Below, piece after piece: positions 16,029 to 61,643 of a DNA stretch of 64,000 bases. This stretch comes from a virus: positions 3,557 to 67,556 of the IMG/VR virus record IMGVR_UViG_3300029999_000001, one strand, 5' to 3'. Positions within the stretch are counted from its first letter, which is position 1, and every line of letters begins with the position of its first letter. The notes beneath the pieces were generated by a model that was given only the letters and a program-made list of their open reading frames with translations, made no database searches and was not told the origin of the DNA. The position numbers and the translations under genes were made by a program.

Positions 16029-17966
16029 ATGGCTAAGACGATCGCGACCGTCTCCGGTGTCGCTCTCGCACCCGGCGTGTCCAGGAACGGCCGGCTCTAC
16101 ACCCGCGAGGCCATCGCCAAAGCGATCGTGCGGGCACAGGGCCGTCTCGCCGATGGCGAAACAGTCGACTTGACCTATCGCGATGAGCCGATGACTCAGC
16201 TGACCCATCACGCGGCCGAGGATGACAGTTCGCGGATCGTCGGGCGGATCACCTCCCTGAGCCTCGGTGAAGACGGGAAGGCCCACTATTCGGCCGCCAT
16301 TGCGGACACGCCGCACGGGCACACCATCGCGAACTTGCTGGACACCAGCGACGGCCAGCCGCCGTTCCTCAAGGGTGTCTCGATCCGCGGTGCATGGCTA
16401 GGCAAGGTCCGCCGCATAAAGGGCCCGGACGGCTCAGCCGTAGAAACCGCCGATGACCTGGAACTCGATGGCCTGGACTACACCCGCAAGCCGGGTGTCC
16501 CTGGCGCGGGCGTTGAGACCTTCGCCTGGGCCAGGGACGGAGCCAATGAGACCACCGAGCGCGTGCTCATCACTGAAAGCGCGGAGGCGTGCGTGACAAC
16601 CCTCACCGAAGAGACCGCGCCGGTAAGCGAGGTCATGCCCGCAGACGTGCGGGAGGCGACGCGGGAACTGCTGCCGCTGGAGCGCCCGCACCTGCTCGCC
16701 AACGGCCTGTGCGAGACCTGCACGGAGATCGGCGAGGCCGCCACGGTCGCCCTGTCGAAACGCAGCGCCGGACTGCAGGGCAAGAGCGGCACCACCTACG
16801 CGGACCCCGGCTACCAGCCGGACAAGAAGCAGCGGTATGAGCTGGACACCAAAGCTCACGTCAGGGCCGCCTGGTCGTTCATCAGCCAGGCGAGCAACGC
16901 CAAGCTGTACACCCCCGCGCAGCTCAAGCGGATCAAGGGCCGGATCAAGGCCGCAGCCGGGAAGTTCGGCATCACGATCGCGACGGAAGGCTGGACGATC
17001 GACCCGGCTCTCCAGCTCACTGAGGCCGTGACCGAGTTCTACGGCGGTGACCCGGAAACCGCGGGCTCCTACACCCTCACCGCCTCCAACGGGCCGACCA
17101 CGGTCACCGTGTGCTCCTACGGCCTTGACCCCGCCGACCTCGCCGTGATCCTGCAGAAGGCCTGCGATGGTGCCGGAAGCGCGCTGGCGTCCCTGGACCC
17201 GGACATGGACGGCGACATTGACGTGCCCGGTGCGGACGCTGAGGACACCGACGGTGACATGAACGGTGACGGGATCGATGACCTCGCCACCCGGCTCGCC
17301 GCCGCATTCAAGGGCGAGTCCGGCGAGGATCCGAAGACGGTTCTCGCCGAGGCCTTCGCCAATCCCCCCGCGGCCGAGGCCGCACCCGCTGAACCCCCGG
17401 CGCCGGACGCCGGACCGCACACAGAAACGGAGGATCCCGCCATGGGCGAGACCACCACGCAGGAGGCGGTCGTGCAGGCCCCGGCCGCCGCACCCGCTGT
17501 CAGTGTCCCCGAGGATCTGGTCGCCAGGTACCAGAAGAAGCTGGCGAAGAAGGAAGCGAAGAAGCGGCTCGCCGCGGCCAAGCCGGCCGAGTCCGCCCCG
17601 GCCGCACCCGTCGCCGAGACCACCACCGAGACCGCCGATGAGCGGATCGCCCGCCTCGTTGAGGAGAAGGTCACCGCGAAGCTCGCGGAGACGGCCGTCA
17701 CCGAGACCGAGGACCAGCGCATCGAGCGGCTCGTCAGCGAACGGCTCGTGGCGGAGAAGCAGGGCGCTGTCGCTGGCGGTGGCGGCCCGGGACGCAAGGG
17801 CCTGGTCACCGAGCACACGGCTGCCCGCACGGGCGGTGAGATCCCCGAGGGCTACCCGATGAAAGACGGCGTGATGAAGCCGATGGAGCAGTGGACCGAG
17901 GATGAGCGCCGCGTCGCCGGCGCGGTCCTGCAGCAGCACGTCCTCGGCGACCGCGCCGTCTACTGA
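16029..17966 (+). CDS. Prohead protease-scaffold fusion with DUF6582-like domain
   Basis: SRNGRLY, His cluster and GVSIRG (compare T4 gp21 GVSSRG); central YADPGYQ.DKKQRYELDT..HVRAAWSFI; acidic coiled-coil C-terminus. Confidence 0.85.
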   Translation: MAKTIATVSGVALAPGVSRNGRLYTREAIAKAIVRAQGRLADGETVDLTYRDEPMTQLTHHAAEDDSSRIVGRITSLSLGEDGKAHYSAAIADTPHGHTIANLLDTSDGQPPFLKGVSIRGAWLGKVRRIKGPDGSAVETADDLELDGLDYTRKPGVPGAGVETFAWARDGANETTERVLITESAEACVTTLTEETAPVSEVMPADVREATRELLPLERPHLLANGLCETCTEIGEAATVALSKRSAGLQGKSGTTYADPGYQPDKKQRYELDTKAHVRAAWSFISQASNAKLYTPAQLKRIKGRIKAAAGKFGITIATEGWTIDPALQLTEAVTEFYGGDPETAGSYTLTASNGPTTVTVCSYGLDPADLAVILQKACDGAGSALASLDPDMDGDIDVPGADAEDTDGDMNGDGIDDLATRLAAAFKGESGEDPKTVLAEAFANPPAAEAAPAEPPAPDAGPHTETEDPAMGETTTQEAVVQAPAAAPAVSVPEDLVARYQKKLAKKEAKKRLAAAKPAESAPAAPVAETTTETADERIARLVEEKVTAKLAETAVTETEDQRIERLVSERLVAEKQGAVAGGGGPGRKGLVTEHTAARTGGEIPEGYPMKDGVMKPMEQWTEDERRVAGAVLQQHVLGDRAVY

Positions 17967-18140
17967 CGGCCCCGGCCCGGTGACGGGCCGCCCCTAGCTG
18001 TACTGACCGCCAGCCTTCCGGGCTGGTGCCGCTGGTGACGGCGGACGGCAGAAATGGTCGGTCGACCCCTGGCCCCGTGCCTGACGCGCGGGGCCTTTCG
18101 CATGCCCAGACCACATTTCCCCAGCCCGGAAGGCACAGCC
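17967..18140 (+). promoter_or_regulatory. Structured leader of the major capsid gene
   Basis: Several hairpins; 18013-18026 is the exact reverse complement of 18121-18134, which contains the GGAAGG RBS. Confidence 0.65.
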
Positions 18141-19523
18141 ATGCCTAGTGAACTGAGGGAGGCGCTGACCGCCGCTGGCGCGTCCGCCCTCATCCCCAAG
18201 ATCATCGACCCGCAGCTCCTGGAGTACATGCGGCGCTTCTCACCCATGGTGCGGGCGATCCCCATGACCAAATGGGACGCGGACGTCTATTACTTCAACC
18301 AGCGCACCACCCTCGCGACCGGCGGGTTCGTGTCCGACGGCGGCGCAGTCCCCGTCTCCACCAGCACGTACGTGCAGAACAACTTCCAGATGAAGCACCT
18401 GCAGGTCGTCGGCGCGGTCACCGGCTACGCGCAGCAGGTCACCCGGCAGGTCATCGACGACCTGAGGCAGACTGAAATCGAGGGGGCCATTCAGGGTCTC
18501 CTGTGGGACATCGAAACCGGCATCGACTGGGGCAACTCCGCGTCCACGATCAACGGCGCCCGCCCCCAGTTCGACGGCTTGGACACCCTGGTGTCCACCT
18601 TCTCCGGGGCGACGCAGAACGCGCAGGACAAGGGCGGCAACACGCTCACCACGGCCATGTTCGATGAGGTCATCGACATGGTGCAGCAGAACGTGGCCAT
18701 GCCGATCCTCGGCTCCAACTGGATGTTCGTCGCATCGTCCACCGCGCAGAGCAAGATCTCGCAGTTGCTGCAGAACCAGCAGCGGTTCAACGACAAGGTG
18801 GAGGTCGCGCCGGGTCTCATGGTCGACTCGTACCGCAACATCCCGATCGTGCTGACGTCGTTCCTGTCGCCGCGGTCCTACCAGATGGGCACCGTGACCC
18901 CCGGCACCTCCAGCGCCGGGACGTGGGGCGGCTCGTACACGCTGAACGCCACCTACCGGTACGTCATCAGCCCGGTCATCGCCCGCCAGGGTGAGATCCT
19001 GCCGGCCGTTGAGGTTTCGCAGGCGGTCACGACCGGCAACGCGCTGACTCTGACGTTCTCGACGCCGAGCGGCTCGGACGGCGGCCAGCCGATCTCCTAC
19101 AAGGTCTACCGGACCGCAGCCGGCGGCGCGGCAGGCTCGGAGACGTTCCTCGGCTACGTCGATGGCACGGTCGGTCTCGCGGCTGACATGGTGACCCCGA
19201 TCCTGACGACCGGGATCGCGGACACCGGCACAGCCCTGGTTCCCTACAACGGGTCCACGGTGCCCGGCACCCTGCCGACGGCGTACTACGGCACCAACAC
19301 CGGCCTGTATCCGCTCGCGGCGGGCCTGGAGAACATCTACCTGATCTCCAGGGACCGGAACTTCGTGATCCGCCCGTACGTGCGTGAGTGCACTCCGCTC
19401 GATGTCTACCCGACCACGAGCAGCCCGGATACACTTCCTTTCGCTCTAGTCGATGACACCTGCCTGGCTGTCCGGGGCCCGAAGTACCTTGGCAGGCTGG
19501 CCCGGGTCGCGACTAGCGTCTGA
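18141..19523 (+). CDS. Major capsid protein with inserted beta-sandwich domain
   Basis: Follows the scaffold; MPSELREAL...IPKIID, QFDGL, YRNIPIV HK97-fold-like pattern; Thr/Gly-rich insertion YRYVI...SYKVYR. Confidence 0.85.
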   Translation: MPSELREALTAAGASALIPKIIDPQLLEYMRRFSPMVRAIPMTKWDADVYYFNQRTTLATGGFVSDGGAVPVSTSTYVQNNFQMKHLQVVGAVTGYAQQVTRQVIDDLRQTEIEGAIQGLLWDIETGIDWGNSASTINGARPQFDGLDTLVSTFSGATQNAQDKGGNTLTTAMFDEVIDMVQQNVAMPILGSNWMFVASSTAQSKISQLLQNQQRFNDKVEVAPGLMVDSYRNIPIVLTSFLSPRSYQMGTVTPGTSSAGTWGGSYTLNATYRYVISPVIARQGEILPAVEVSQAVTTGNALTLTFSTPSGSDGGQPISYKVYRTAAGGAAGSETFLGYVDGTVGLAADMVTPILTTGIADTGTALVPYNGSTVPGTLPTAYYGTNTGLYPLAAGLENIYLISRDRNFVIRPYVRECTPLDVYPTTSSPDTLPFALVDDTCLAVRGPKYLGRLARVATSV

Positions 19524-27851: not shown

Positions 27852-30800
27852 GTGACGTCTGTGATCAGCCAGTGGACTGGCGGGTTCTCCTACCTGTCCG
27901 GCTATTTCACCCCGGAGCCGGCTGGCCAGTCCGTTGACGTGCCGGTAAGCAACACAGGCGACAGTGACAACTGGCTGTTCGCGGTGTGCGCGTGGCAGAC
28001 CCCCGCCACGTTCGGGTCCACCGTCGCGGTCGGCGACGACGCGCACAACTGGTGGGAACCATTGGGTGCACCCACCGGGACGAGTCCGGATGATGGGATC
28101 ACCCGCTGCTCGGTGTGGGCGGCCCCGAACCCATCCGTGGCCGGGAACGTCTTCGTAAGCCCCAACGGGTACTGCCAGGCCCTCATCGCGTTCGTGTTCG
28201 AGGTTCAGGGCATGAGCCCGTGGCTGGACGTGCCCGGCGTGGTCACCGCGTACGCGAACGATGCCACCGCGCTGTCCGGGCTGGCGCTGGCCGCCCCGGG
28301 GTCGCAGGCGCTGGTGCTGTCGGTGTGCGCGACGGACAAGACCACCGCGACCGTCACCGGGCCGGGCGCCGGGTGGACGGCGCTGCCTGCACAGTCGTGG
28401 AGCAACGGTGTTGACCACACCTCCGACATCACCATCGCCACCAGCTATCAGGTCACGTCCGCTGCGACCGCCGCAGCGTACACAACAAGCGGGACCGCGG
28501 ACCTGGCCGGCCTGATGGCCGCGGTGCTGATCAGCCCGGCGGCACCGTTCGCCCCGTCCCAGACCTGGCCGCACATTCAGTTCCAGCTCGGCTTCGGGGC
28601 CGGGGTGCAGACCCCATGGGATCAGGTCACCTGGACGGATGTAACCGGCCGGTTCCGGGGCATGACCACCCAGCGCGGCAAGCAGTACGAGCTCGATTCG
28701 GTGCAGGCGGGGACGGTCAACATGACCCTCTCCAACAATGACGCTGCGCTGACCCCCGAAAACAGTGCGTCCCCGTACTGCCCGGATGTCACCGTCTACA
28801 CGCCGGTCCGGGTGCTGGCGACCTGGCCGCCGCCCCCGGCCGCCGGCGCGAAAACCTATGTGGTGTTCCGCGGGTTCATGGAACGCTGGCCCCTCGCCCT
28901 GACCAGCAGCCGGTATCAGAACACGGCCGGGGTCGCCACCGACGTGTGGGCGCTGATGACGCCGCTGCTGAACACGATCACCCGCGCGGAGATCCTCCTC
29001 GATCAGCCGTTCGCCTACTGGACGATGAGCGACGCCGCCGGGGCACCGTACGCGGCGAACCTGGCCCCCGGCAACATGAACCCGCTGCAGGTCATCCAGT
29101 CCAAGTACGGGATCGGGTCAAGCACTGTCAGCTTCGGGAACGACCCATCGGATCTGATCATCGGTGACCCGTCCGGCACCGTGTGGGCCCAGTCGGGGCT
29201 GACCAGCGGGCAGGGAAGCGACGGGTACGCCCTCGTCTACAGCGACTCCGGGCTCCCGTCCCTCGCTGGCGGGGTGACGGCCGAAGGCTGGTTCCAGGTC
29301 TCGAACTCCAACCCGGCAGTGGTCGGGTGGACGCTGATCATCCTGAAGAACACCGCCACCCCCATGTTCAAGGTGTGGGTCCGGGCATCCGACGGCGCGA
29401 TGATGGTCACCGCCTGGGACAAAACCACCCACGTGAGCACGAACACTGTCGTCAACAGCGCCCAGTCGTGGGCGGACAGCACCTTCACGCATGTTGCGCT
29501 GCTGCTGACGCAGACGACATGGCAGGTCATCCTCGACGGGGGGGCGTTCCCCGGCGCGTCCGGGTCCTGCAACCTGGGCAGCACCTGGGCGTTCACCGAC
29601 TTCGGTGGTGAAGCTGACCGGCTGTTCAGCGGGAACATGTTCAACGGGCAGGTCGCGCATCTGGCGATCTTCCCCCGGCTGCTGCCGAACGCCCGGATCG
29701 TCTCCCACTTCTACGGGACCACCGCCGGGTTCGGCAGCGGGCAGGAACTCGCCGGGGCGCGGATCGAGCGGATCCTCGCTGACTCCGGATGCTTGCAGCC
29801 GCGCAGCATCGGGGTGACCGTTGACGCGGTGCAAGGCGCCCTTGACATTCAGGGGCAGGCCACCGGGCAGAACGTCACCAACATCGCCGAGTCGGAGAGC
29901 GGGCTGCTGTACGCGGACGCGGCCGGGTACCTGTGCTACACACCCCGCCGCGCCGGATACAACCTCGGGTCGTTGTGGACTGCTGGGGAGATGGCCGGGC
30001 AGCCGTTCAACCTCAACCCAACGTTCGCGGGCCTGCTCGCGCCGTGGACCGCCTACCAGGGGACGATCACGCTGACGCAGGCGCAGGTGTACGGCGCCCC
30101 CTACTCGGCGCTGCTCACCCCCAGCCCCAGCGTCACGTTCTGCGAGATCCTCGACGCGCCGGTGCTGGTCACCGCCGGGGAGGAATACACCGCCTCCGCA
30201 TGGGTGTACTCGCCGGCAGGGTGGGGAAGCGTCCAGATCGGTTTCGACTGGCAGGCCGCCGGCGGCGGGTACCTGTCCACCTCAACGGAACTGTTCCCGG
30301 TGCAGGCCGGGCAATGGACATACCTGACCACCACCCAGACCGCCCCAGCCGGGGCGGTGAGCGGGGAAATCCGGGTCGGGGAAGCGGGCAGCCCGGCACC
30401 AGCGAACATCCTGTACGTGTCACAGGCGGCCATGACGGCCGCGTTCCAGACCGAAGCGCCGTACCAGGCTGACATCCAGTTCGACTACGACCCCAGCCAG
30501 GTTTACAACGACATCACGCTGACCCAGTTCGGGGCGCCGCAGGAGATCGGCGGGGCGGACATCTCCACCGTCACCGCGATCACATCCCCCGCCTCGATCA
30601 GCGCCTACGGTGACCAGACGCTGCAGGAAACGATCTACCTGTTCAGCGCGGCCACCCAAGGGGACCTCGCGAACTGGATCCTGGGCACCAGCGACCAGCC
30701 GTACATCCGGGTGTCGCAAATGACGTTTGACCCGAGCGCGAACCCGGCGTTGTGGCCGATCGTGCTGTCCGCTGAGGTCGGGCAGGTGATCACCGTCAAC

Positions 30801-48787: not shown

Positions 48788-48837
48788 ACGCCCGTCCGGC
48801 TCTGGTCCTTCGGGACCGGGCCGGGCGGGCGTCTTTC
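48788..48837. terminator. Long UUCG-capped hairpin between convergent operons
   Basis: ACGCCCGTCCGGCTCTGGTCC-TTCG-GGACCGGGCCGGGCGGGCGT. Confidence 0.75.
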
Positions 48838-48944
48838 GCATGCCCAGGTTTCGCGGTCTCGCCGCTGCGGGTATCACCTATGTGACCGGGGCTGAGCGCT
48901 GGCCTTGGGGAAGGTAACTCCGGGCACACCGATCGGTGTCACTC

Positions 48945-51855: not shown

Positions 51856-52041
51856 TTAACTGGCTCCTTCAGGTGGGGAACTTCTCTCATCGCGCCGGGA
51901 ACGGATCCGGTGCATGACGGTGACCACGCCATTGATGGCCGCGTAAACGAGCAGGGAGGCGCCCGCCCAGAGAATGACAACGGCAACAGCGAAGACACCC
52001 AGCGCGGCGAAGGCGGCGATCACGGCGAGAACACCGGTCAC
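51856..52041 (-). CDS. Small membrane protein
   Basis: Hydrophobic N-terminal 40 aa; ATGA coupling. Confidence 0.6.
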   Translation of the reverse strand: MTGVLAVIAAFAALGVFAVAVVILWAGASLLVYAAINGVVTVMHRIRSRRDERSSPPEGAS

Positions 52042-52574
52042 GGCTGCCCGGCCTCTCCGGGGGCCGCGGGCTCATGTGTCTCGGCGAACACATCAGGGCG
52101 GCACGGGTAGAACTCGTTCCGGATGCCCTTGATGATCCAGTCGCCGTCGTATACGCGAACCCAGGTGCTGTGCAGCTTGTCCAGGACCGCAGCGGTCTGG
52201 TCAGGATCTTCGCCGCGGTCTTCCGGGTCAACGGCGTAAAAGTGCCCCGTCCCCGTCAGCTCCTGAACCTCCCGGAGGTTCGCGCCGGTCCACTGGACAG
52301 CCTTTATGACCACGGGCTTCTTGCGGTAGCGCCCGGGTTCTGCGGTCGCGTCCGATTCCCCTTCCGCGTCCCCGGTGATGGCCTCACACTGGCGGGTGAT
52401 CTCCGCATCCTTCGCCTCAAGCACCGGGCCGACCACGGTCATGACCGCGGAAATCAGATCGGGGTTGATCAGAACGGGGTCATCTGCGGTGAAGCCACGC
52501 TTGAGGAACTCGCGGCAGATGCCCTGCTCAACCTCGGCGGGAGAAGCAGCGAGGAGAGGGTCCGGGCCGGTCAT
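52038..52574 (-). CDS. Phage protein with YRKKPVVIxAVQW domain
   Basis: YRKKPVVIKAVQWTG...GDWIIKG..NEFYPCRPDVF, a widespread phage family pattern. Confidence 0.75.
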   Translation of the reverse strand: MTGPDPLLAASPAEVEQGICREFLKRGFTADDPVLINPDLISAVMTVVGPVLEAKDAEITRQCEAITGDAEGESDATAEPGRYRKKPVVIKAVQWTGANLREVQELTGTGHFYAVDPEDRGEDPDQTAAVLDKLHSTWVRVYDGDWIIKGIRNEFYPCRPDVFAETHEPAAPGEAGQP

Positions 52575-52840
52575 GCGGCATCGCCATGGCTGGTCTCAGG
52601 GAACGGCTCGCCGGTCACGGTGAGGCCGAGCTCGTGCATCAGGTCAGCCTTGCGTACCCGGTAGAACCGGCCGATCCGCATCACCCGGCACGGGAACTCC
52701 CCGGCGCGGGCCATCTCGTGGGCCTTGGTGCGCCCGAGACCGAACGCCCGGCCCGCAGCCGGCAAGTCCATCGTCACCGGCAGGCCGAGCAGTTCCTCCA
52801 GGCTCATCCGCAGTGACTGCGGTTCCTGATCTTTCGCCAT
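52571..52840 (-). CDS. xis: Excisionase-like HTH protein
   Basis: LPAAGRAFGLGRTKAHEMARAGEFP..V.RIGRFYRV; divergent from the repressor and integrase. Confidence 0.8.
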   Translation of the reverse strand: MAKDQEPQSLRMSLEELLGLPVTMDLPAAGRAFGLGRTKAHEMARAGEFPCRVMRIGRFYRVRKADLMHELGLTVTGEPFPETSHGDAA

Positions 52841-52997: not shown

Positions 52998-53606
52998 GTG
53001 GACAACGAAAACGGCAGGCCGCCAGACGCTGACCAGCTACCCGTGCGGCGCATCTCGATCAATCAGGTCGTCGCCTGGAACATGGCCTACTTCCGCCGGA
53101 TAGCGGACATCACCCAGGAAGGACTCGGCGAGCTGATCGGCGGCAGGCCCAAGACCGCCGTCTCCGCCGATGAGCGCTCATGGGACGGGAAACGGACCCG
53201 CGAGTTCGACGCCCACAGCATCACGCTCATCGCCGAGGCGCTCGGTGTGCCGATCATCGCCCTGTTCCTGCCGCCCGAAGACGACGGCCTCAGCGAGCAG
53301 TACGTCTACGACGCCGGCACCGGGCAGGGCTTCATGACCGACCTGATGCAGGCCGTACTCCCCAACACCGGAGACCGGACACCTGTCATGGACGCCTACC
53401 GGAAACGATTTCAGAACGCCGTCACCTACTATGCGGACCCGACGTTCGGTGAGCAGGTCGCCCGGTTCCTGCGGGACGCCACCGACGACGAGCTGCGCGC
53501 CGACCGCGCTTCGCGGATCCGCCAGCGGCAAGCCGACCTTGAGGGAGTGGCCGCCGAGCTCGGGGAGATCGCGGAAGCACTGGAGAACCCGGAGGCTGGC
53601 CAGTGA
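52998..53606 (+). CDS. XRE-type immunity repressor
   Basis: VAWNMAYFRRIADITQEGLGELIG...AVSADER HTH; coupled to the integrase. Confidence 0.75.
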   Translation: MDNENGRPPDADQLPVRRISINQVVAWNMAYFRRIADITQEGLGELIGGRPKTAVSADERSWDGKRTREFDAHSITLIAEALGVPIIALFLPPEDDGLSEQYVYDAGTGQGFMTDLMQAVLPNTGDRTPVMDAYRKRFQNAVTYYADPTFGEQVARFLRDATDDELRADRASRIRQRQADLEGVAAELGEIAEALENPEAGQ

Positions 53607-54991
53607 GCGAACCGGTCTACAAGCGCTGCAAATGCCGCGACGCTGACGGCAAGGACATCGGCGTGTCCTGCCCGAAGCTGAAACGGGCCGACGGGTCATG
53701 GAATCCGAAGCACGGGACGTGGTACTTCGCGCTCGAGCTGCCGCCCGGCCCCGGCGGCAAGCGGCGGCCGAGGCTGCGCCGCGGTGGGTACGAAACACGC
53801 GAGGCGGCGGCGGATGCCCGGGATCAGGCCAGGGCCACGCTCCGCAGGGGCGTTGACCCGTCCGTCAAGACGATGACCGGCAAGTACCTCACCACCTGGC
53901 TCGCTGGCCGCCGCGACCTCAAGCCGACCACCCGGCACAACTACGAGGTCAGCATCAGCACCTACCTGGTCCCGCTGCTGGGGCACATTGAGCTGAGCAG
54001 GCTTCAGCCGGAGCACATCGCGGACGCCTTCGCCACGATCAGGGAATGGAACGACCTGCTTCTCTCGGGGCAGCCGGTCCGCAAGTACCAGCGGCACGTC
54101 GGGCCCGCAGCGATGCAGCGGATCCGCAACGTCCTTCAGTCCGCGCTGCGGGATGCGATCAAGGCACGGATGATCGAGTTCAACGCCGCGAAGCTCGTCA
54201 GCATGGACCCGGTAACGTCCCAGAAGCCGATGATGTGGACGGCTGAGCGGGCACGGAAGTTCTGGGCCGGCTACGAGGAAGCACTCGAAGCCTCTCCGCT
54301 GACCCGCGGGGACAGGGCTTTCCTGGTGTGGCGGTCCGTCGCGCTGCGGCCCTTCCCGGTGATGGTGTGGAATCTGAGCGACCTCGGGGCCTTCCTCGAC
54401 TACGCCGCTGGGCATCGCCTCTCCCCCGTGTTCGAGCTTGCCGCCGGCACGGGGATGCGCCGCGGTGAGCTGTGCGGGCTGCGCTGGACGGATGTGGACC
54501 TGGATCAGAGCATCCTCTACATCACGCCGGGCGGGGTGCGTGTCCAGGCCGGATGGGAAGTCTTCGAAGGCGGCCCGAAGACAGAAGCGGGCGGCCGGGA
54601 GGTCCCGCTCATCGACCAGGACACCGGGACGCTCCGGGCGTGGAAGCGGCAGCAGAACCGGGAGCGGCTCTCCTGGGGCAGCGACTGGCAGGACAGCGGC
54701 CTTGTCTTCACCCATGAGGACGGGTCGGCATGGCACCCGGAGGCTGTGACTGATGCTTTCGAGCGGCTCGCGTTCGCCGCGCATCTCCCGCCGGTCCGGC
54801 TGCATGACATCCGGCACGCGCACATCTCCCAGTTGCTTGCCGCCGGGGTCGATGTCCGGATCGTTTCGGAGCGGGTCGGTCACTCCGGGAGCAAGATGAC
54901 CCGCGACTACGCGGCGGTGGCGGCTGAGGTCTCCCGGCAGGCCGCCGCGACGATTGTCGGGATGATCCCGAGGAAAGCAGGTGGGCAATGA
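53603..54991 (+). CDS. int: Tyrosine integrase
   Basis: GMRRGELCGLRW, PKT, LHDIRH, GHS and DY catalytic residues; N-terminal arm-binding region. Confidence 0.95.
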   Translation: MSEPVYKRCKCRDADGKDIGVSCPKLKRADGSWNPKHGTWYFALELPPGPGGKRRPRLRRGGYETREAAADARDQARATLRRGVDPSVKTMTGKYLTTWLAGRRDLKPTTRHNYEVSISTYLVPLLGHIELSRLQPEHIADAFATIREWNDLLLSGQPVRKYQRHVGPAAMQRIRNVLQSALRDAIKARMIEFNAAKLVSMDPVTSQKPMMWTAERARKFWAGYEEALEASPLTRGDRAFLVWRSVALRPFPVMVWNLSDLGAFLDYAAGHRLSPVFELAAGTGMRRGELCGLRWTDVDLDQSILYITPGGVRVQAGWEVFEGGPKTEAGGREVPLIDQDTGTLRAWKRQQNRERLSWGSDWQDSGLVFTHEDGSAWHPEAVTDAFERLAFAAHLPPVRLHDIRHAHISQLLAAGVDVRIVSERVGHSGSKMTRDYAAVAAEVSRQAAATIVGMIPRKAGGQ

Positions 54992-55200
54992 GCAACAGCC
55001 GCAGTTTCCGCCGCCGCCTGGAGGCGAGCCGCAATGACCGGCGGTCACGGCGCGGCCTGGCGATGACCTCCACGCCATCGCTTAGCACCACGCGCCGATG
55101 GCTGAAGGCGGCTGAAGCCGAAGGCGTCGTGAGGCGCGCGGAGGATCGGCGCACGGGGAAGCCCGGCCGGCCCGCGCATATGTGGGAGCTGGCGCAGTGA
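54988..55200 (+). CDS. Small basic protein (winged-helix fragment-like)
   Basis: LSTTRRWLKAAEAEGVVRR...GRPAHMWEL. Confidence 0.4.
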   Translation: MSNSRSFRRRLEASRNDRRSRRGLAMTSTPSLSTTRRWLKAAEAEGVVRRAEDRRTGKPGRPAHMWELAQ

Positions 55201-55215
55201 TTGGCGTGATTCCGG

Positions 55216-55497
55216 GCGGACTCCAAATGGACTCCCCCGCACCGCTCCGGGTGGGGGGCCGGAAAACGGCAGATGCGCGGCCGCATGCCCAGGGCCTATG
55301 GGTGGGAGCCGGTGAGCGGATTCGAACCGCTGACCTGCCGTTTACAAGACGCCGGGAGTTCATGTCGCCCGAAATAGACTCATGTCGGGCACATGGAGTT
55401 CGCGCAGGTCAGGGGAGAGGCAGATCAGCTTTCCGGGTCATCTCGTATCGCCTCAAAAGGCCCAACTCCAGGCCGTGCGGACTCCAAATGGACTCCC
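55216..55497. mobile_element. attP site with arm-type repeats
   Basis: Perfect 21-bp direct repeat GCGGACTCCAAATGGACTCCC at 55216-55236 and 55477-55497, flanking a tRNA-derived core, immediately downstream of int. Confidence 0.85.
55303..55351 (-). other. att core: 3' half of tRNA-Thr(UGU)
   Basis: Minus strand CGT-CTTGTAA-ACGGC-AGGTC-AGCGG-TTCGAAT-CCGCT-CACCGGCTCC; no D-arm or 5' acceptor strand upstream. Confidence 0.88.
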
Positions 55498-55525
55498 AGA
55501 GCGCAGAAATCAGAAGGGGGGAGTC

Positions 55526-55738
55526 GTGACCGGGAAAGTGATCACCGAGGGGACTCCTGTCGTCATCACGGACGCCTTCGGGAAAGAATGGCCGACGACC
55601 GCACTCAGCGGCGTCGAAATCAAGGGCCACAGCTTCCCGGTGATATGGGTCAAGCGCCCGCTGACGGCAGGCGGCTGGGACAAGGCTCCATGGCCGGCCG
55701 AATCGGTCCGGCTGGCCCGGCCTAGTGAGACCCGGTGA
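55526..55738 (+). CDS. Small hypothetical protein
   Basis: GAAGGGGGGAG RBS before GTG 55526. Confidence 0.6.
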   Translation: MTGKVITEGTPVVITDAFGKEWPTTALSGVEIKGHSFPVIWVKRPLTAGGWDKAPWPAESVRLARPSETR

Positions 55739-55813
55739 GGCAGCGGCCCGCGGTCACGTCAGCGTGACCAGCTCGCATGAGCTAGGCGTCTTGCGTACCG
55801 GGGCCGCTGCCTC
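55737..55813 (-). ncRNA. Candidate structured RNA 1 (multibranch)
   Basis: 13-bp closing stem GAGGCAGCGGCCC/GGGCCGCTGCCTC enclosing GGTCACG/CGTGACC and AGCTC/GAGCT hairpins. Confidence 0.5.
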
Positions 55814-55816
55814 TTC

Positions 55817-55917
55817 TGGTGGCGGGGAGACAGGGACCAGCCTTCCGGGCCGCTGGCGCCCGCCGGCACTGGCCGCTTACGCGGGGGCCGGGCAATCCCA
55901 TCCCTGAACGTCTCCCC
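55817..55917 (-). ncRNA. Candidate structured RNA 2 ending in GCCACCA
   Basis: GGGGAGAC/GTCTCCCC plus AGGGA/TCCCT closing stems; GTAA and GGAA (GNRA) loops on the minus strand. Confidence 0.55.
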
Positions 55918-55933
55918 AAACGGGAATTCTGTG

Positions 55934-56041
55934 AGTGCCGGGTGAGGCTGCCGCCCGGGCCATTTGTGTCGGACACTCCAGCCGTGCACTGCCTCGGCGT
56001 CCAGCTACCGCACTGCGAAGTGCGTGCACCTTCCCGGCACT
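55934..56041 (-). ncRNA. Candidate structured RNA 3
   Basis: 9-bp closing stem AGTGCCGGG/CCCGGCACT; internal TGCAC/GTGCA and GCACT/AGTGC helices; starts 3 nt after the tRNA. Confidence 0.5.
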
Positions 56042-56044
56042 ACG

Positions 56045-56118
56045 TGGCGGAGACGTGATTTGAACACGCGACCTCTGAGTTATGAGCCCAGCGAGCTACC
56101 GAACTGCTCCACTCCGCT
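56045..56118 (-). tRNA. tRNA-Met(CAU), initiator (fMet)-type
   Basis: AGCGGAG-TG-GAGC-AGTTCGGTA-GCTC-G-CTGGG-CTCATAA-CTCAG-AGGTC-GCGTG-TTCAAAT-CACGT-CTCCGCC-A; 1:72 mismatch; CCA not encoded. Confidence 0.93.
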
Positions 56119-56127
56119 GTGATCATC

Positions 56128-56514
56128 TTACCGATGCCGTCTCCGCTTCGCCCGCAATGACGGCTTGACGTGCAGCGCCGGGCCGGAGTTCGCGCACGGG
56201 TTGCAGGTGGCGCAGCGGATGTGAGCGCTGGGGTTGCTGGCCGCGTGATAGTCGTGGGCGGCGAAAAGGGGCTGCAGCGTCGCCGCCATCCGCTGAAAGC
56301 CCCGCATGAGCGAGGTTACTTCCGGGATGACGATCACGTTGTAGTAGTAGGTGCTGTGCCGCAGAACGCTCCACCGTTCCGGCCAGATTGCGCCGCCCCC
56401 GTCGCAGATGATCCGTCCGGCGTCCGGGTTCCACCGCATCGCGTCGCTGCTGGTCGTGGAGTCCTCAAGGGCGCCGTCGATCGCGGCGAGGACGCCGGGA
56501 GTGTCAGTGGTCAC
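56128..56514 (-). CDS. Hypothetical protein (leaderless)
   Basis: CAGAAT 7 nt before GTG 56514; HIRCATCNPCAN near the C-terminus. Confidence 0.55.
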   Translation of the reverse strand: MTTDTPGVLAAIDGALEDSTTSSDAMRWNPDAGRIICDGGGAIWPERWSVLRHSTYYYNVIVIPEVTSLMRGFQRMAATLQPLFAAHDYHAASNPSAHIRCATCNPCANSGPALHVKPSLRAKRRRHR

Positions 56515-56603
56515 GGCTACCATTCTGCACGGCAACGGCCCGGAACCAGCGCTCTGGGCGCGATCCCGGGCCGCTCAGGGCCGTGGTGGGCGCGGCCCTG
56601 GTC

Positions 56604-56945
56604 TCAGCCGGTTAAAACGAGGCGTTTGCCTAGCGCGCACTCAAGCGGGATGGTGTCCGGGGCCCTGGGGAGCAGGCCCGCGTAGGAGGCCAGGTCGTAC
56701 GGAAGCCTGCTGAACTCTCCGGTGGTGATAATGAGCTCGGGGACGCCCGCTTCTAGCCGGCGGTGATGCCGGAGCCGCACGTGAGTCTCGTTCTCGGTGA
56801 CGTCCAGGCAGCCGATGCGTGTCATCGCAGTGGCATCGCCATGGCGATCCCACCGCCGACACTGCGCTGAAGGACACCGGCCGGGGGTGTGAGGATCTCT
56901 GGCTGCTCGATGCTGTTGGAGAAGCTGTTGCCGTACACAGGTCAC
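56604..56945 (-). CDS. Hypothetical protein (start probably MTRIGCLDV, ~56825)
   Basis: ORF track; the 3' half looks protein-like. Confidence 0.45.
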   Translation of the reverse strand: MTCVRQQLLQQHRAARDPHTPGRCPSAQCRRWDRHGDATAMTRIGCLDVTENETHVRLRHHRRLEAGVPELIITTGEFSRLPYDLASYAGLLPRAPDTIPLECALGKRLVLTG

Positions 56946-56990
56946 ACTCCTGTCGTTGCGGGCGGTCAGCGGGTTGCGGATCCGCCATGC

Positions 56991-57179
56991 TCAGCCTTCG
57001 TAAACATAGTTGGGCTTGACGCCGTTGTGGAGGTAGGCACCATAGTGGGCCACGCCGCCGTACCGCAGCGCCACCACGACGGCGGCAGTCATGGCCAGGG
57101 CGATCAGGGCCAGCATGGCTAGGCGCATGGCGGGGGCTAGGCGCATGGCGGGGATTGTGTGCAGGACTCCGGGCTTCAT
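56991..57179 (-). CDS. Small secreted or membrane-anchored peptide (62 aa)
   Basis: GAAGGAGA RBS; basic N-region, hydrophobic MLALIALAMTAAVVVAL, polar C-tail ...NGVKPNYVYEG. Confidence 0.7.
   Translation of the reverse strand: MKPGVLHTIPAMRLAPAMRLAMLALIALAMTAAVVVALRYGGVAHYGAYLHNGVKPNYVYEG
57117..57152. repeat. 18-bp tandem duplication
   Basis: GGCTAGGCGCATGGCGGG twice (encodes PAMRLA twice). Confidence 0.9.
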
Positions 57180-57216
57180 GGTTCTCCTTCGCGGGATGTC
57201 CCTTATGCCCGCAGGA

Positions 57217-61001: not shown

Positions 61002-61280
61002 TCACTGACCAGCCTTCCTTGCTGCCGCCACGATCGCCGCTGACGCGACGTCAGGGCATCCGCCGTCGCTCTGGGCCCACGCCTCGAAGGCGCCCTCCGC
61101 CGCCGGGCACCTCTCGCAGATCACGTCCATGAGGACGACGCGAGTGAGCCGCTCCTCATCGGTCAGTCGCCGCTCGTGTGCTCTGCGGTCCAGGGTCTCC
61201 AGCGACCAGGCGAGCAGCCGCACGGGCAGCTCCCGGCATCGCGCCTTCATCTGCTCGACGACTTCTTCGCGGGTGCTCAT
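61002..61280 (-). CDS. Hypothetical protein
   Basis: ORF track. Confidence 0.6.
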   Translation of the reverse strand: MSTREEVVEQMKARCRELPVRLLAWSLETLDRRAHERRLTDEERLTRVVLMDVICERCPAAEGAFEAWAQSDGGCPDVASAAIVAAARKAGQ

Positions 61281-61283
61281 TGC

Positions 61284-61643
61284 TCAGGCCGCCTTCCGGG
61301 CCAGGACCAGCCGCGCGGCCAGCGAGTGCTTGCAGGACACCGCAGTGAGCCGGCGCAGGCCGCTCGGGCAGTTGCAGGTCTCCCGGTGGGTCAGGTAGGT
61401 CCGTTCCCCGTCGCTGCTCACTGCACGGAACACGCCGGGGCGGGAGGTGGGGACGAGACCGCCGTCCTCGATCAGCTCGCGGGCCTTCTCAACCTGCGCG
61501 GCGGCGAAGCCCTTGACGGCCTCGGCAGCAGCGGCGGCGCGGATGCGGGCCCGGCAGACGGGGCCGTAGGTCTGCGAGACCCGGAGCTTGCGCCCGCAGC
61601 GGAGGCAGCGGGCCGGCTCGGCTGGGGTCGTGGTCAGCTCCAT
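61284..61643 (-). CDS. DUF6011-like zinc finger plus SWIM-like domain protein
   Basis: RCLRCGRKL...YGPVC; CNCPSG...CKH (CxC-xn-CxH). Confidence 0.75.
   Translation of the reverse strand: MELTTTPAEPARCLRCGRKLRVSQTYGPVCRARIRAAAAAEAVKGFAAAQVEKARELIEDGGLVPTSRPGVFRAVSSDGERTYLTHRETCNCPSGLRRLTAVSCKHSLAARLVLARKAA

What the first reader, a model, noticed from the sequence alone, without database searches (positions are those of the whole stretch)
55837..55850. A tRNA-linked structured RNA carries the exact complement of the capsid anti-SD element (candidate trans-activator)
Seen: CCAGCCTTCCGGGC occurs at 18010-18023 and at 55837-55850 on the plus strand. RNA 2, transcribed on the minus strand behind the tRNA, would therefore contain GCCCGGAAGGCTGG, complementary to the leader's anti-SD and mimicking the capsid SD region. 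Inference: an early-region small RNA could sequester the anti-SD and switch on capsid translation, linking the lysis-lysogeny region to morphogenesis. Caveat: CC-GNRA-GG hairpins recur at RBSs here (1353, 14560, 14958), so part of the match may be convergent.
Basis: partly seen in the sequence, partly recalled or inferred. Interest (0 to 1): 0.8.

Follow-up and report, generated by a model that had tools for sequence, protein, structure and literature searches.

The report
Conserved phage small RNA, chance capsid match
The repeated 14 bases are real and the second copy lies in the tip hairpin of a genuine, uncatalogued small RNA found in several soil-actinobacterial phages, but comparison with relatives gives no support for the idea that this RNA switches on capsid translation.

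Summary
Observation confirmed. CCAGCCTTCCGGGC occurs exactly twice in the window and in the whole 100-kb phage record, at 18010-18023 and 55837-55850.

"RNA 2" is real. The stretch 55824-55917 on the minus strand belongs to a family of 86-95-nt structured RNAs with no Rfam match. I found it in seven other phage, prophage or metagenome loci. The stems co-vary, every copy is followed by a terminator, one other complete phage also carries it behind a tRNA-Met, and related copies turn up in RNA libraries. The 14-mer is the loop plus 3' stem of its apical hairpin H3.

The trans-activator reading is not supported.
- The H3 loop motif is conserved across the family, including in a complete phage that lacks the capsid-leader motif.
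- The leader hairpin is arm P2 of a conserved three-way junction. Its loop varies freely among relatives.
- The one other genome with both elements shows no H3:P2 complementarity.
- A 14-nt complement somewhere in the genome arises in 25% of shuffles of RNA 2.
- Predicted folding does not favour the RNA 2-leader duplex.

The match is lineage-specific and most likely a coincidence helped by a recurrent CCGGAAGG ribosome-site word. I put a true regulatory pairing at about 0.1. RNA 2's own function is unknown.

This scan had already noted the three units behind the tRNA and the leader switch on this same window.

The parts
55837..55850 (-). The 14-mer. On the RNA strand it reads GCCCGGAAGGCTGG, which is RNA 2 nt 68-81: most of the H3 loop plus the whole 3' stem strand.
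55837..55856 (-). Hairpin H3 of RNA 2. The stem is CCAGC/GCUGG and the 10-nt loop is GGCCCGGAAG. Across the family the stem co-varies and the loop motif C(C/U)G(G)AAG is kept.
55824..55917 (-). RNA 2 core, 94 nt. Closing stem P1 is GGGGAGAC/GUCUCCCC, P1b is AGGG/CCCU, and the block CAGGGAUGGG is invariant. It belongs to a conserved family with no Rfam match.
55737..55815 (.). Long GC-rich hairpin lying between RNA 2 (minus strand) and the convergent small gene (plus strand). It is the terminator-like element that follows RNA 2, as in every family member.
55935..56043 (-). Unit 1: a structured spacer between the tRNA-Met and RNA 2. No homologue was found. It contains a 13/14 copy of the tRNA D-arm word.
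56044..56118 (-). tRNA-Met (CAT), upstream of RNA 2 on the same strand. The same order (tRNA-Met, then RNA 2) is seen in the complete phage G410.
18003..18062 (+). Conserved three-way junction in the capsid leader: P1 GACC/GGTC, P2 CCAGCC/GGCTGG (18010-18026), P3 TGCCG/CGGCA. The first copy of the 14-mer is the P2 5' strand, the loop and part of the 3' strand.
18071..18101 (+). Terminator-like hairpin plus TTTCGC tail between the junction and the capsid ribosome site. It is conserved in relatives.
18121..18143 (+). Capsid SD region CCAGCCCGGAAGGC (SD GGAAGG at 18128-18133) and the ATG at 18141. It is the 14-nt reverse complement of 18013-18026.
55200..55500 (.). attP. It holds a tRNA-Thr(TGT) 3' fragment (about 55303-55345, minus strand) between two 25-nt arm-type repeats (55212-55236 and 55473-55497), downstream of the tyrosine integrase at 53603-54991.

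Best explanation
The second copy of the 14-mer is the apical hairpin (H3: loop plus 3' stem) of a real small RNA of about 94 nt. This RNA is made from the minus strand downstream of the phage tRNA-Met and ends at the hairpin at 55737-55815.

It belongs to an uncatalogued family carried in the lysogeny or tRNA region of several temperate phages and prophages of peat and soil Streptosporangiaceae. The family keeps a closing stem, the block CAGGGAUGGG and an exposed 9-10-nt H3 loop with C(C/U)G(G)AAG, while the H3 stem co-varies. That pattern points to the loop as the RNA's recognition surface for a partner common to all carriers. This last step is inference, and the partner is unknown.

The first copy is arm P2 of a separately conserved three-way junction in the capsid leader. 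The two hairpins happen to share the stem CCAGC/GCUGG. In this phage alone the variable P2 loop reads UUCCG, which also makes P2 complementary to this phage's own capsid ribosome site. That site is one of a recurrent CCGGAAGG type. The 14-nt identity therefore follows from two independently constrained hairpins plus a common ribosome-site word. It is most likely not a regulatory link between RNA 2 and capsid translation.
For: RNA 2 is a real family.
- BLAST over 401 Streptosporangiaceae genomes found 91% and 72% homologues covering exactly 55817-55931.
- Pattern scans added members in IMG/VR and metagenome contigs, including scans that did not require the loop motif.
- P1 pair 5 is AU, CG or UA. 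H3 has six different complementary stems. The covariation score was reached by 0 of 500 shuffles.
- A terminator hairpin follows every member.
- In the complete phage G410 the order is tRNA-Met, then RNA 2, then terminator.
- RNA-library contigs hold 46-59 nt identical to 55813-55871 with unlike flanks. An exact 750-nt contig of the upstream operon is present in a peat metatranscriptome.
- Neither RNA 2 nor the leader has an Rfam match.

P2 is independently conserved. The junction is invariant in 10 capsid relatives, while their loops and ribosome sites differ. The covariance model finds no second copy at 55.8 kb.

No co-variation is seen.
- G224 has both elements but non-complementary loops.
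- G410 has RNA 2 and no leader motif.
- G001, a complete relative, has the leader and no RNA 2 or second hairpin copy.
- G125 has the identical H3 and no partner word.

The recurrent ribosome-site word is shown.
Against: - The match falls on the two functionally most plausible spots: the exposed loop of a conserved sRNA hairpin and the anti-SD arm of the leader. The chance of a complement of 14 nt or more specifically in that leader is about 2e-4.
- The two loops (CGGAA and UUCCG) could start a kissing contact.
- The leader's sequestered ribosome site needs some way to open, given a predicted pairing probability of about 1.
- RNA 2 and the capsid-leader lineage co-occur in G224 (1 and 2 of 401 genomes), so the two elements travel in the same phage group.
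- The genomes compared are few, and several are incomplete MAGs or fragments.
- No strand-specific expression data exist for this phage.
Confidence: 0.62

Rival explanations
1. RNA 2 pairs through H3 with the P2/anti-SD arm of the capsid leader: a kissing contact between loops CGGAA and UUCCG, then a 14-bp duplex. This prevents or displaces the intramolecular anti-SD:SD helix and turns on capsid translation. It would be a recent, lineage-specific co-option of a pre-existing RNA.
For: - The exact 14-nt complement is located in the H3 loop plus stem and in the anti-SD arm.
- The leader ribosome site is predicted to be fully sequestered.
- The chance of such a match in this particular leader is about 2e-4.
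- RNA 2 is a real RNA.
Against: - No conservation or co-variation is seen in any relative.
- H3 is identical in G125 and in RNA-library variants from other habitats, so it is not tuned to this leader.
- Co-folding keeps the intramolecular helix. The forced heteroduplex scores -159.7 against -161.3 kcal/mol.
- 9 of the 14 nt are stem-paired or partly paired in RNA 2.
- RNA 2 sits in the lysogeny-side operon, which gives no obvious late timing.
- At the level of discovery, 0.8 such intergenic matches are expected.
Confidence: 0.12
2. Decoy model. The H3 loop mimics the CCCGGAAGG-type ribosome-site hairpins of this phage group. It would titrate a factor that recognises them (a protein, or the 3' end of 16S rRNA). 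The likeness of RNA 2, the capsid SD and P2 would then reflect one shared ligand rather than RNA-RNA pairing.
For: - GCCCGGAAGGC occurs 4 times in the genome, against about 0.3 expected from base composition. Two copies are at real ribosome sites (the capsid and the gene starting at 61280), one is in RNA 2, and one is the complement of P2.
- RNA 2 shares 12 nt with each of two minus-strand ribosome sites, at 61299 and 61010.
- The loop motif is conserved family-wide.
Against: - No candidate binding protein was identified.
- The family loops CUGGAAG and CCCGAAG are poor SD mimics.
- Ribosome-site motifs in the other carriers were not examined.
- The model is purely inferential.
Confidence: 0.1
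3. Mobile cassette. RNA 2 plus its terminator is a small mobile non-coding cassette, and its internal sequences are constrained by its own mobility or maintenance rather than by any target in the phage.
For: - The cassette is flanked by an exact 12-nt direct repeat in G409 and by a 17/20 repeat in the window.
- It is found in mosaic, otherwise unrelated contexts: behind tRNA-Met, behind XRE/DUF5753 genes, and next to integrases.
Against: - No flanking repeats are seen in the other five contexts.
- Its ends do not copy the neighbouring tRNA end in G410.
- Mosaicism is normal for phage lysogeny modules.
Confidence: 0.06
4. Plus-strand reading. Read-through from the small gene at 55526-55738 would give an RNA carrying CCAGCCUUCCGGGC, an anti-SD mimic. 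It could pair with 11-12 nt of CCCGGAAGG-type ribosome sites, the capsid's included, and repress them during lysogeny.
For: The plus-strand word is complementary to GCCCGGAAGGC at the capsid and 61299 ribosome sites.
Against: - Across the family the orientation is fixed by the downstream terminators and, in two phages, by the upstream tRNA-Met on the other strand.
- The hairpin at 55737-55815 lies between the small gene and the word.
Confidence: 0.03

Closest known systems
Anti-antisense activating sRNAs (DsrA, RprA, ArcZ on the rpoS leader; RNAIII on hla). Named from my own knowledge.
   Same: The target leader has an intramolecular helix that hides the ribosome site, and a trans RNA carries the complement of the inhibitory strand. 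Both features are present here in sequence.
   Different: - The pairing is not conserved in relatives.
- The complementary segment is the RNA family's own conserved hairpin.
- Actinobacteria lack Hfq.
- No expression or binding data exist.
- Predicted energetics are neutral.
Phage antisense regulators that act on ribosome sites (P1/P7 c4 RNA, P22 sar, lambda OOP). Named from my own knowledge.
   Same: These are small structured phage RNAs encoded in the immunity or lysogeny region that use loop sequences to pair with a phage mRNA.
   Different: - Those RNAs repress by covering a ribosome site, and their targets lie in the same region.
- Here the proposed effect is activation of a gene 38 kb away.
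- There was no match to the Rfam c4 model or to any other family.
Small structured cassettes behind tRNA genes, noted elsewhere in this scan (e1-718340, e1-1475805 and similar)
   Same: A non-coding, strongly folded unit with its own terminator sits directly behind a tRNA-Met gene. In two cases a short direct repeat flanks it.
   Different: - Those cassettes are framed by copies of the neighbouring tRNA's own 3' end. RNA 2 is not (G410).
- RNA 2 also occurs with no tRNA nearby.
- The host phyla are different.
Bacterial small SRP RNA (4.5S), domain IV tetraloop
   Same: The local word CC-GGAA-GG resembles the GGAA tetraloop region, and the size of about 100 nt is similar.
   Different: - Rfam's SRP models do not match, even at E up to 10.
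- RNA 2 is multi-branched.
- It was found in only 2 of 401 host-family genomes, so it is not a housekeeping RNA.

Membership tests
Trans-encoded activating sRNA (anti-antisense type) | The target 5' leader folds so that the ribosome site is sequestered by an upstream complementary strand. | tested here: met
   A 14-bp helix joins 18013-18026 to 18121-18134, with pairing probability about 1 in the predicted ensemble (-103 against -79 kcal/mol for the junction fold). This is prediction only.
Trans-encoded activating sRNA (anti-antisense type) | The sRNA carries a complement of the inhibitory strand. | tested here: met
   RNA 2 nt 68-81 are the exact complement of 18010-18023.
Trans-encoded activating sRNA (anti-antisense type) | The sRNA-target complementarity is kept or co-varies in related genomes. 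| tested here: not met
   - G224 has both elements and no extended complement.
- G410 has RNA 2 and no leader motif.
- G001 and G002 have the leader and no RNA 2 or second copy.
- G125 has the identical H3 and no partner word.
Trans-encoded activating sRNA (anti-antisense type) | The seed is accessible and the heteroduplex is energetically favoured. | tested here: inconclusive
   The loop CGGAA is largely unpaired, with the flanks paired (unpaired probability 0-0.98). The co-fold MFE keeps the intramolecular helix, and the forced duplex is 1.6 kcal/mol worse.
Trans-encoded activating sRNA (anti-antisense type) | The sRNA is expressed. | tested here: inconclusive
   Family members with the same H3 appear in two RNA libraries. 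The upstream operon of this phage appears in a peat metatranscriptome. These are contigs only, so they give no strand, ends or level.
Any Rfam 15 family (including tRNA, tmRNA, SRP, c4, Y RNA) | A covariance-model match at or near the gathering score. | tested here: not met
   Only the tRNA-Met matches. Nothing above noise at E up to 10 was found for 55650-56200, for 17900-18200, or for the homologues L112 and L113. ARAGORN, even with relaxed settings, finds no tRNA or tmRNA in RNA 2.
New RNA 2 family (defined here) | P1 GGGGNGAC/GUCNCCCC, the CAGGGAUGGG block, H3 with a C(C/U)G(G)AAG loop, CCCUGUC, and a downstream terminator. | tested here: met
   The window copy and seven other loci share all of these features, and the covariation control gave 0/500.
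tRNA-end-framed structured cassettes (earlier notes of this scan) | The ends of the element copy the neighbouring tRNA's own 3' end. | tested here: not met
   - No repeat of the tRNA-Met 3' end occurs in the region or the genome.
- In G410 the 3' end of RNA 2 is unlike the end of its tRNA.
- Five members have no tRNA nearby.

The most novel reading that the evidence does not exclude
RNA 2 is the founding example of an uncatalogued family of lysogeny-region small RNAs in temperate actinophages. In this one phage lineage the capsid leader has evolved a hairpin loop and a ribosome site that both match RNA 2's conserved recognition loop. A lysogeny-side RNA would then gate translation of the major capsid protein through a kissing-loop, strand-exchange switch.
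Probability: 0.1. Interest if true: 0.75.

Novelty: new member of a known kind. Interest (0 to 1): 0.42.

Why it matters
The proposed capsid switch would have been an unusual regulatory link in a phage, but the evidence is against it.

What remains is still useful. One result is a small structured RNA family with co-varying stems, specific to temperate phages of peat and soil Streptosporangiaceae, twice linked to a phage tRNA-Met and absent from Rfam. The other is a separately conserved three-way junction plus terminator in front of the major capsid gene of the same phage group. Both are concrete, testable candidates for RNA-based control in actinophages, a group in which very few non-coding RNAs have been characterised.

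The case also shows that a perfect 14-mer in a 67% G+C genome is weak evidence on its own.

Tried and rejected
- **Paralogue of the leader junction at 55.8 kb.** Rejected. Model R1 scores 58.6 bits at 18003-18062 and only 11.9 bits (noise) at 55846-55877.
- **tRNA-Met as the prophage boundary or attP.** Rejected. No repeat of its end occurs anywhere. The real attP is the tRNA-Thr fragment at about 55303-55345, which has arm repeats.
- **Units 1 and 2 as decayed tRNAs or a tmRNA.** Relaxed ARAGORN and the Rfam tRNA model gave nothing credible.
- **Relatives via the phage database.** Megablast of both loci found no match.
- **Relatives via neighbouring proteins.** The integrase, the ORF at 56128-56535 and the 70-aa ORF gave none in IMG/VR. 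The capsid gave none in genome contigs.
- **Other phages with the same P2 loop.** None in IMG/VR.
- **A small ORF behind the SD-like word in RNA 2.** There is no ATG, GTG or TTG within range. A CTG frame of 24 codons has unremarkable third-position G+C (my reading).
- **Conserved trans-targets of H3 in other carriers.** Only chance-level complements of 11-13 nt were found, with the 12-mer in G410 lying inside a gene.
- **Relaxed pattern hits L136, L138, L150, L151 and L158.** Judged spurious: low G+C or no P1.
- **Literature.** Two searches found no description of such an RNA. This is not exhaustive.
- **Complex prediction and protein structure tools.** Not relevant, so not used.

Full report
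**1. Observation.** CCAGCCTTCCGGGC occurs exactly twice, at 18010-18023 and 55837-55850 on the + strand. No further copy exists, even at one mismatch, in the window or in the whole 100,323-bp IMG/VR record of which the window is 3557-67556. The minus strand at the second site reads GCCCGGAAGGCTGG.

**2. Setting.** This is a temperate actinophage of about 100 kb and 67% G+C, assembled from peat metagenomes.
- The major capsid gene starts at 18141 (phrog_752, SU10_MCP).
- A tyrosine integrase lies at 53603-54991.
- attP follows it. This is a 3' fragment of tRNA-Thr(TGT) on the minus strand at about 55303-55345, flanked by two 25-nt arm-type repeats at 55212-55236 and 55473-55497. Its 44-nt core is exact in 77 stretches of peat and soil Streptosporangiaceae MAGs, which names the host family.
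- Next come a probable 70-codon gene (55526-55738, +) and a long hairpin (55737-55815).
- On the minus strand, in transcription order, lie tRNA-Met (56118-56044), a structured spacer ("unit 1") and RNA 2.

**3. The first copy.** Ten capsid relatives (43-78% protein identity; plus G224) share a leader motif.
- It is a three-way junction: P1 GACC/GGTC, with one A-U to G-C compensatory change; P2 CCAGCC/GGCTGG; and P3 TGCCG/CGGCA.
- A terminator-like hairpin with a UUUCGC tail follows it.
- The stems are invariant, but the P2 loop differs in nearly every lineage (UUCCG here; CGCCG, ACGAAGG, CACACAG, AACCU and others elsewhere). The ribosome sites differ too.
- Only in this phage is P2 complementary to its own capsid ribosome site. 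That is the 14-bp helix 18013-18026 with 18121-18134, which dominates the predicted fold.
- A covariance model of the junction (R1) finds 18003-18062 at 58.6 bits and nothing above noise elsewhere. The 55.8-kb site is therefore not a second copy of the motif.

**4. The second copy.** A BLAST search of the 304-nt tRNA-downstream region over 401 Streptosporangiaceae genomes gave two significant hits: 91% identity in G125 and 72% in G224. Both covered exactly 55817-55931, which is RNA 2 alone.

Pattern scans then added members in IMG/VR and JGI contigs. These included a scan that did not require the loop motif.

The eight loci share these features:
- closing stem P1 GGGGNGAC/GUCNCCCC, with pair 5 as A-U, C-G or U-A;
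- P1b AGGG/CCCU;
- an invariant CAGGGAUGGG block;
- a variable middle;
- hairpin H3;
- CCCUGUC;
- a terminator hairpin just downstream.

H3 has six different but always complementary stems: CCAGC/GCUGG, GCGAC/GUCGC, GCGGC/GCCGC, CAGC/GCUG, CCGC/GCGG and CCCCC/GGGGG. Its loop is 9-10 nt and reads RRMC(C/U)G(G)AAG.

MAFFT misplaces the 3' strand of H3 by one column in three sequences. Even so, the covariation score of the structure I specified was reached by 0 of 500 shuffles and exceeded all slid controls.

No Rfam family matches the window copy or the homologues. Relaxed ARAGORN sees no tRNA or tmRNA.

Contexts are lysogeny-type:
- next to tyrosine integrases and a homologue of the window's ORF at 52041-52595;
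- behind XRE/DUF5753 regulator genes;
- in the complete 56-kb phage G410, directly behind a tRNA-Met on the same strand, as in the window.

The family is rare. It was found in 2 of 401 host-family genomes, so it is an accessory RNA of mobile elements and not a housekeeping RNA.

**5. Expression evidence.** This is limited to contigs of RNA libraries.
- A peat metatranscriptome holds an exact 750-nt contig of 56445-57194, which is part of the minus-strand operon upstream of the tRNA.
- Two unrelated RNA libraries (one rhizosphere, one viral-fraction) hold short contigs identical or nearly so to 55813-55871. That stretch covers H3, the 14-mer and the 3' end of P1. The flanks differ, and where readable they look like other family members.
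- This shows that the same H3 exists in other elements and is present in RNA preparations. It does not give strand, ends or level, and DNA carry-over cannot be excluded.

**6. Is the match more than chance?**
- 14-mer repeats abound in this composition: 274 pairs in the window, against about 81 in shuffles.
- Between crude non-coding segments, 0.8 matches of 14 nt or more are expected and 4 are observed. One of the others is a terminator tail shared by the capsid leader and the terminator at 48.8 kb.
- A shuffled RNA 2 finds a perfect complement of 14 nt or more somewhere in the genome in 25% of trials, but in the capsid leader in only 0.02%.
- The word overlaps a recurrent ribosome-site motif. 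CCGGAAGG occurs 17 times in the genome, about six of them at ribosome sites. The 11-mer GCCCGGAAGGC occurs four times, against about 0.3 expected from base composition (the expectation is my arithmetic).
- RNA 2 also shares 12-mers with two genuine minus-strand ribosome sites.
- The identity of the H3 and P2 stems adds little, because each stem strand forces its partner.

**7. Comparative test of the trans-activator idea.**
- G224 is the only one of 401 genomes with the leader motif, and one of only two with RNA 2. So the two elements do travel in the same phage group. There, however, P2 is CCAGCC-CCG-GGCUGG, the ribosome site is AAAGGGA and the H3 loop is AAACCGGAA. Beyond the shared stem letters and a palindromic CCGG there is no complementarity.
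- G410 is complete, carries RNA 2 and has no leader motif.
- G001 is a complete capsid relative. It has the leader but no RNA 2, no tRNA and no second copy of its own hairpin.
- G125 has an identical H3 but no second copy of the word and no capsid homologue in the assembled part.
- In other carriers the best H3 complements are chance-sized and lie inside genes.

**8. Energetics.**
- The leader alone strongly prefers the closed helix.
- Co-folding with RNA 2 keeps that helix. Forcing the 14-bp heteroduplex gives -159.7 against -161.3 kcal/mol.
- In RNA 2 the CGGAA part of the loop is open but the flanking bases are paired.
- A kinetic, co-transcriptional route through a loop-loop kiss is conceivable but untested.

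**9. Conclusion.** The 14-mer sits in that family's own conserved hairpin, and the matching leader hairpin is separately conserved except for its loop. The evidence from relatives, statistics and energetics does not support a regulatory pairing.

I put the coincidence or shared-word explanation at about 0.6 and a real lineage-specific pairing at about 0.1. The remainder is split among a decoy model, a mobile-cassette model and a plus-strand model. RNA 2's actual function is unknown. My inference, not shown, is that its exposed and conserved H3 loop is the surface that contacts a partner common to all carriers.

**Earlier notes of this scan.**
- e1-5346215 (leader switch) and e1-5346217 (three units behind the tRNA) were made on this same window and agree with what I found.
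- The notes on tRNA-framed cassettes in other phyla gave a lead that I tested. It does not fit.

Noticed in passing
window 55200-55500: attP. A tRNA-Thr(TGT) 3' fragment (about 55303-55345, minus strand) lies between two 25-nt arm-type repeats that each contain GGACTCC twice (55212-55236 and 55473-55497). The 44-nt core is exact in 77 stretches of peat and soil Streptosporangiaceae MAGs, and some contigs carry it twice about 5 kb apart. The long ORFs listed across this stretch are probably spurious.
   Followed up: partly
window 18003-18101: The capsid leader holds a conserved three-way junction followed by a terminator-like hairpin with a UUUCGC tail. It is shared by all capsid relatives found and has no Rfam match. 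This placement, in front of the most highly expressed late gene, suggests an attenuator or an antitermination (put-like) element.
   Followed up: partly
window 18095-18109 and 48833-48847: The exact 15-mer CTTTCGCATGCCCAG follows a strong GC hairpin at both sites. It looks like a shared terminator tail, and it is one of only four intergenic matches of 14 nt or more in the window.
   Followed up: partly
window 55731-55750 and 55938-55957; G409:C1 about 29250-29450: RNA 2 plus its terminator is flanked by a 17/20 direct repeat in the window and by an exact 12-nt direct repeat (CTGTAGCCTGGC) in the provirus G409. This hints that the unit may move as a cassette. No such repeat is seen in the other members.
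   Followed up: partly
window 56044-56118: The phage tRNA-Met is 96-98% identical to bacterial tRNA-Met sequences (a host-family MAG and RNA-library contigs), with a single A/G difference at 56078. It lacks the three G-C pairs in the anticodon stem that mark initiator tRNAs, so it is an elongator tRNA-Met or a tRNA-Ile2 type.
   Followed up: no
window 56445-57194: A peat metatranscriptome holds an exact 750-nt contig of this stretch, which lies in the minus-strand genes downstream of the XRE regulator. This suggests the operon is transcribed in situ, possibly from lysogens.
   Followed up: no
window 55526-55738: A probable 70-codon gene with a GTG start and a strong ribosome site (AGAAGGGGGGAG). 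After integration it would sit at the very end of the prophage, next to the host tRNA-Thr. It has no Pfam or PHROG match and no relatives were found.
   Followed up: partly
window 1706/2097 and 40440/51997: Two further exact intergenic matches of 14-15 nt (GATGAGCAGCGCGC inverted; ACCCAGCGCGGCGAA direct). Their meaning is unknown.
   Followed up: no
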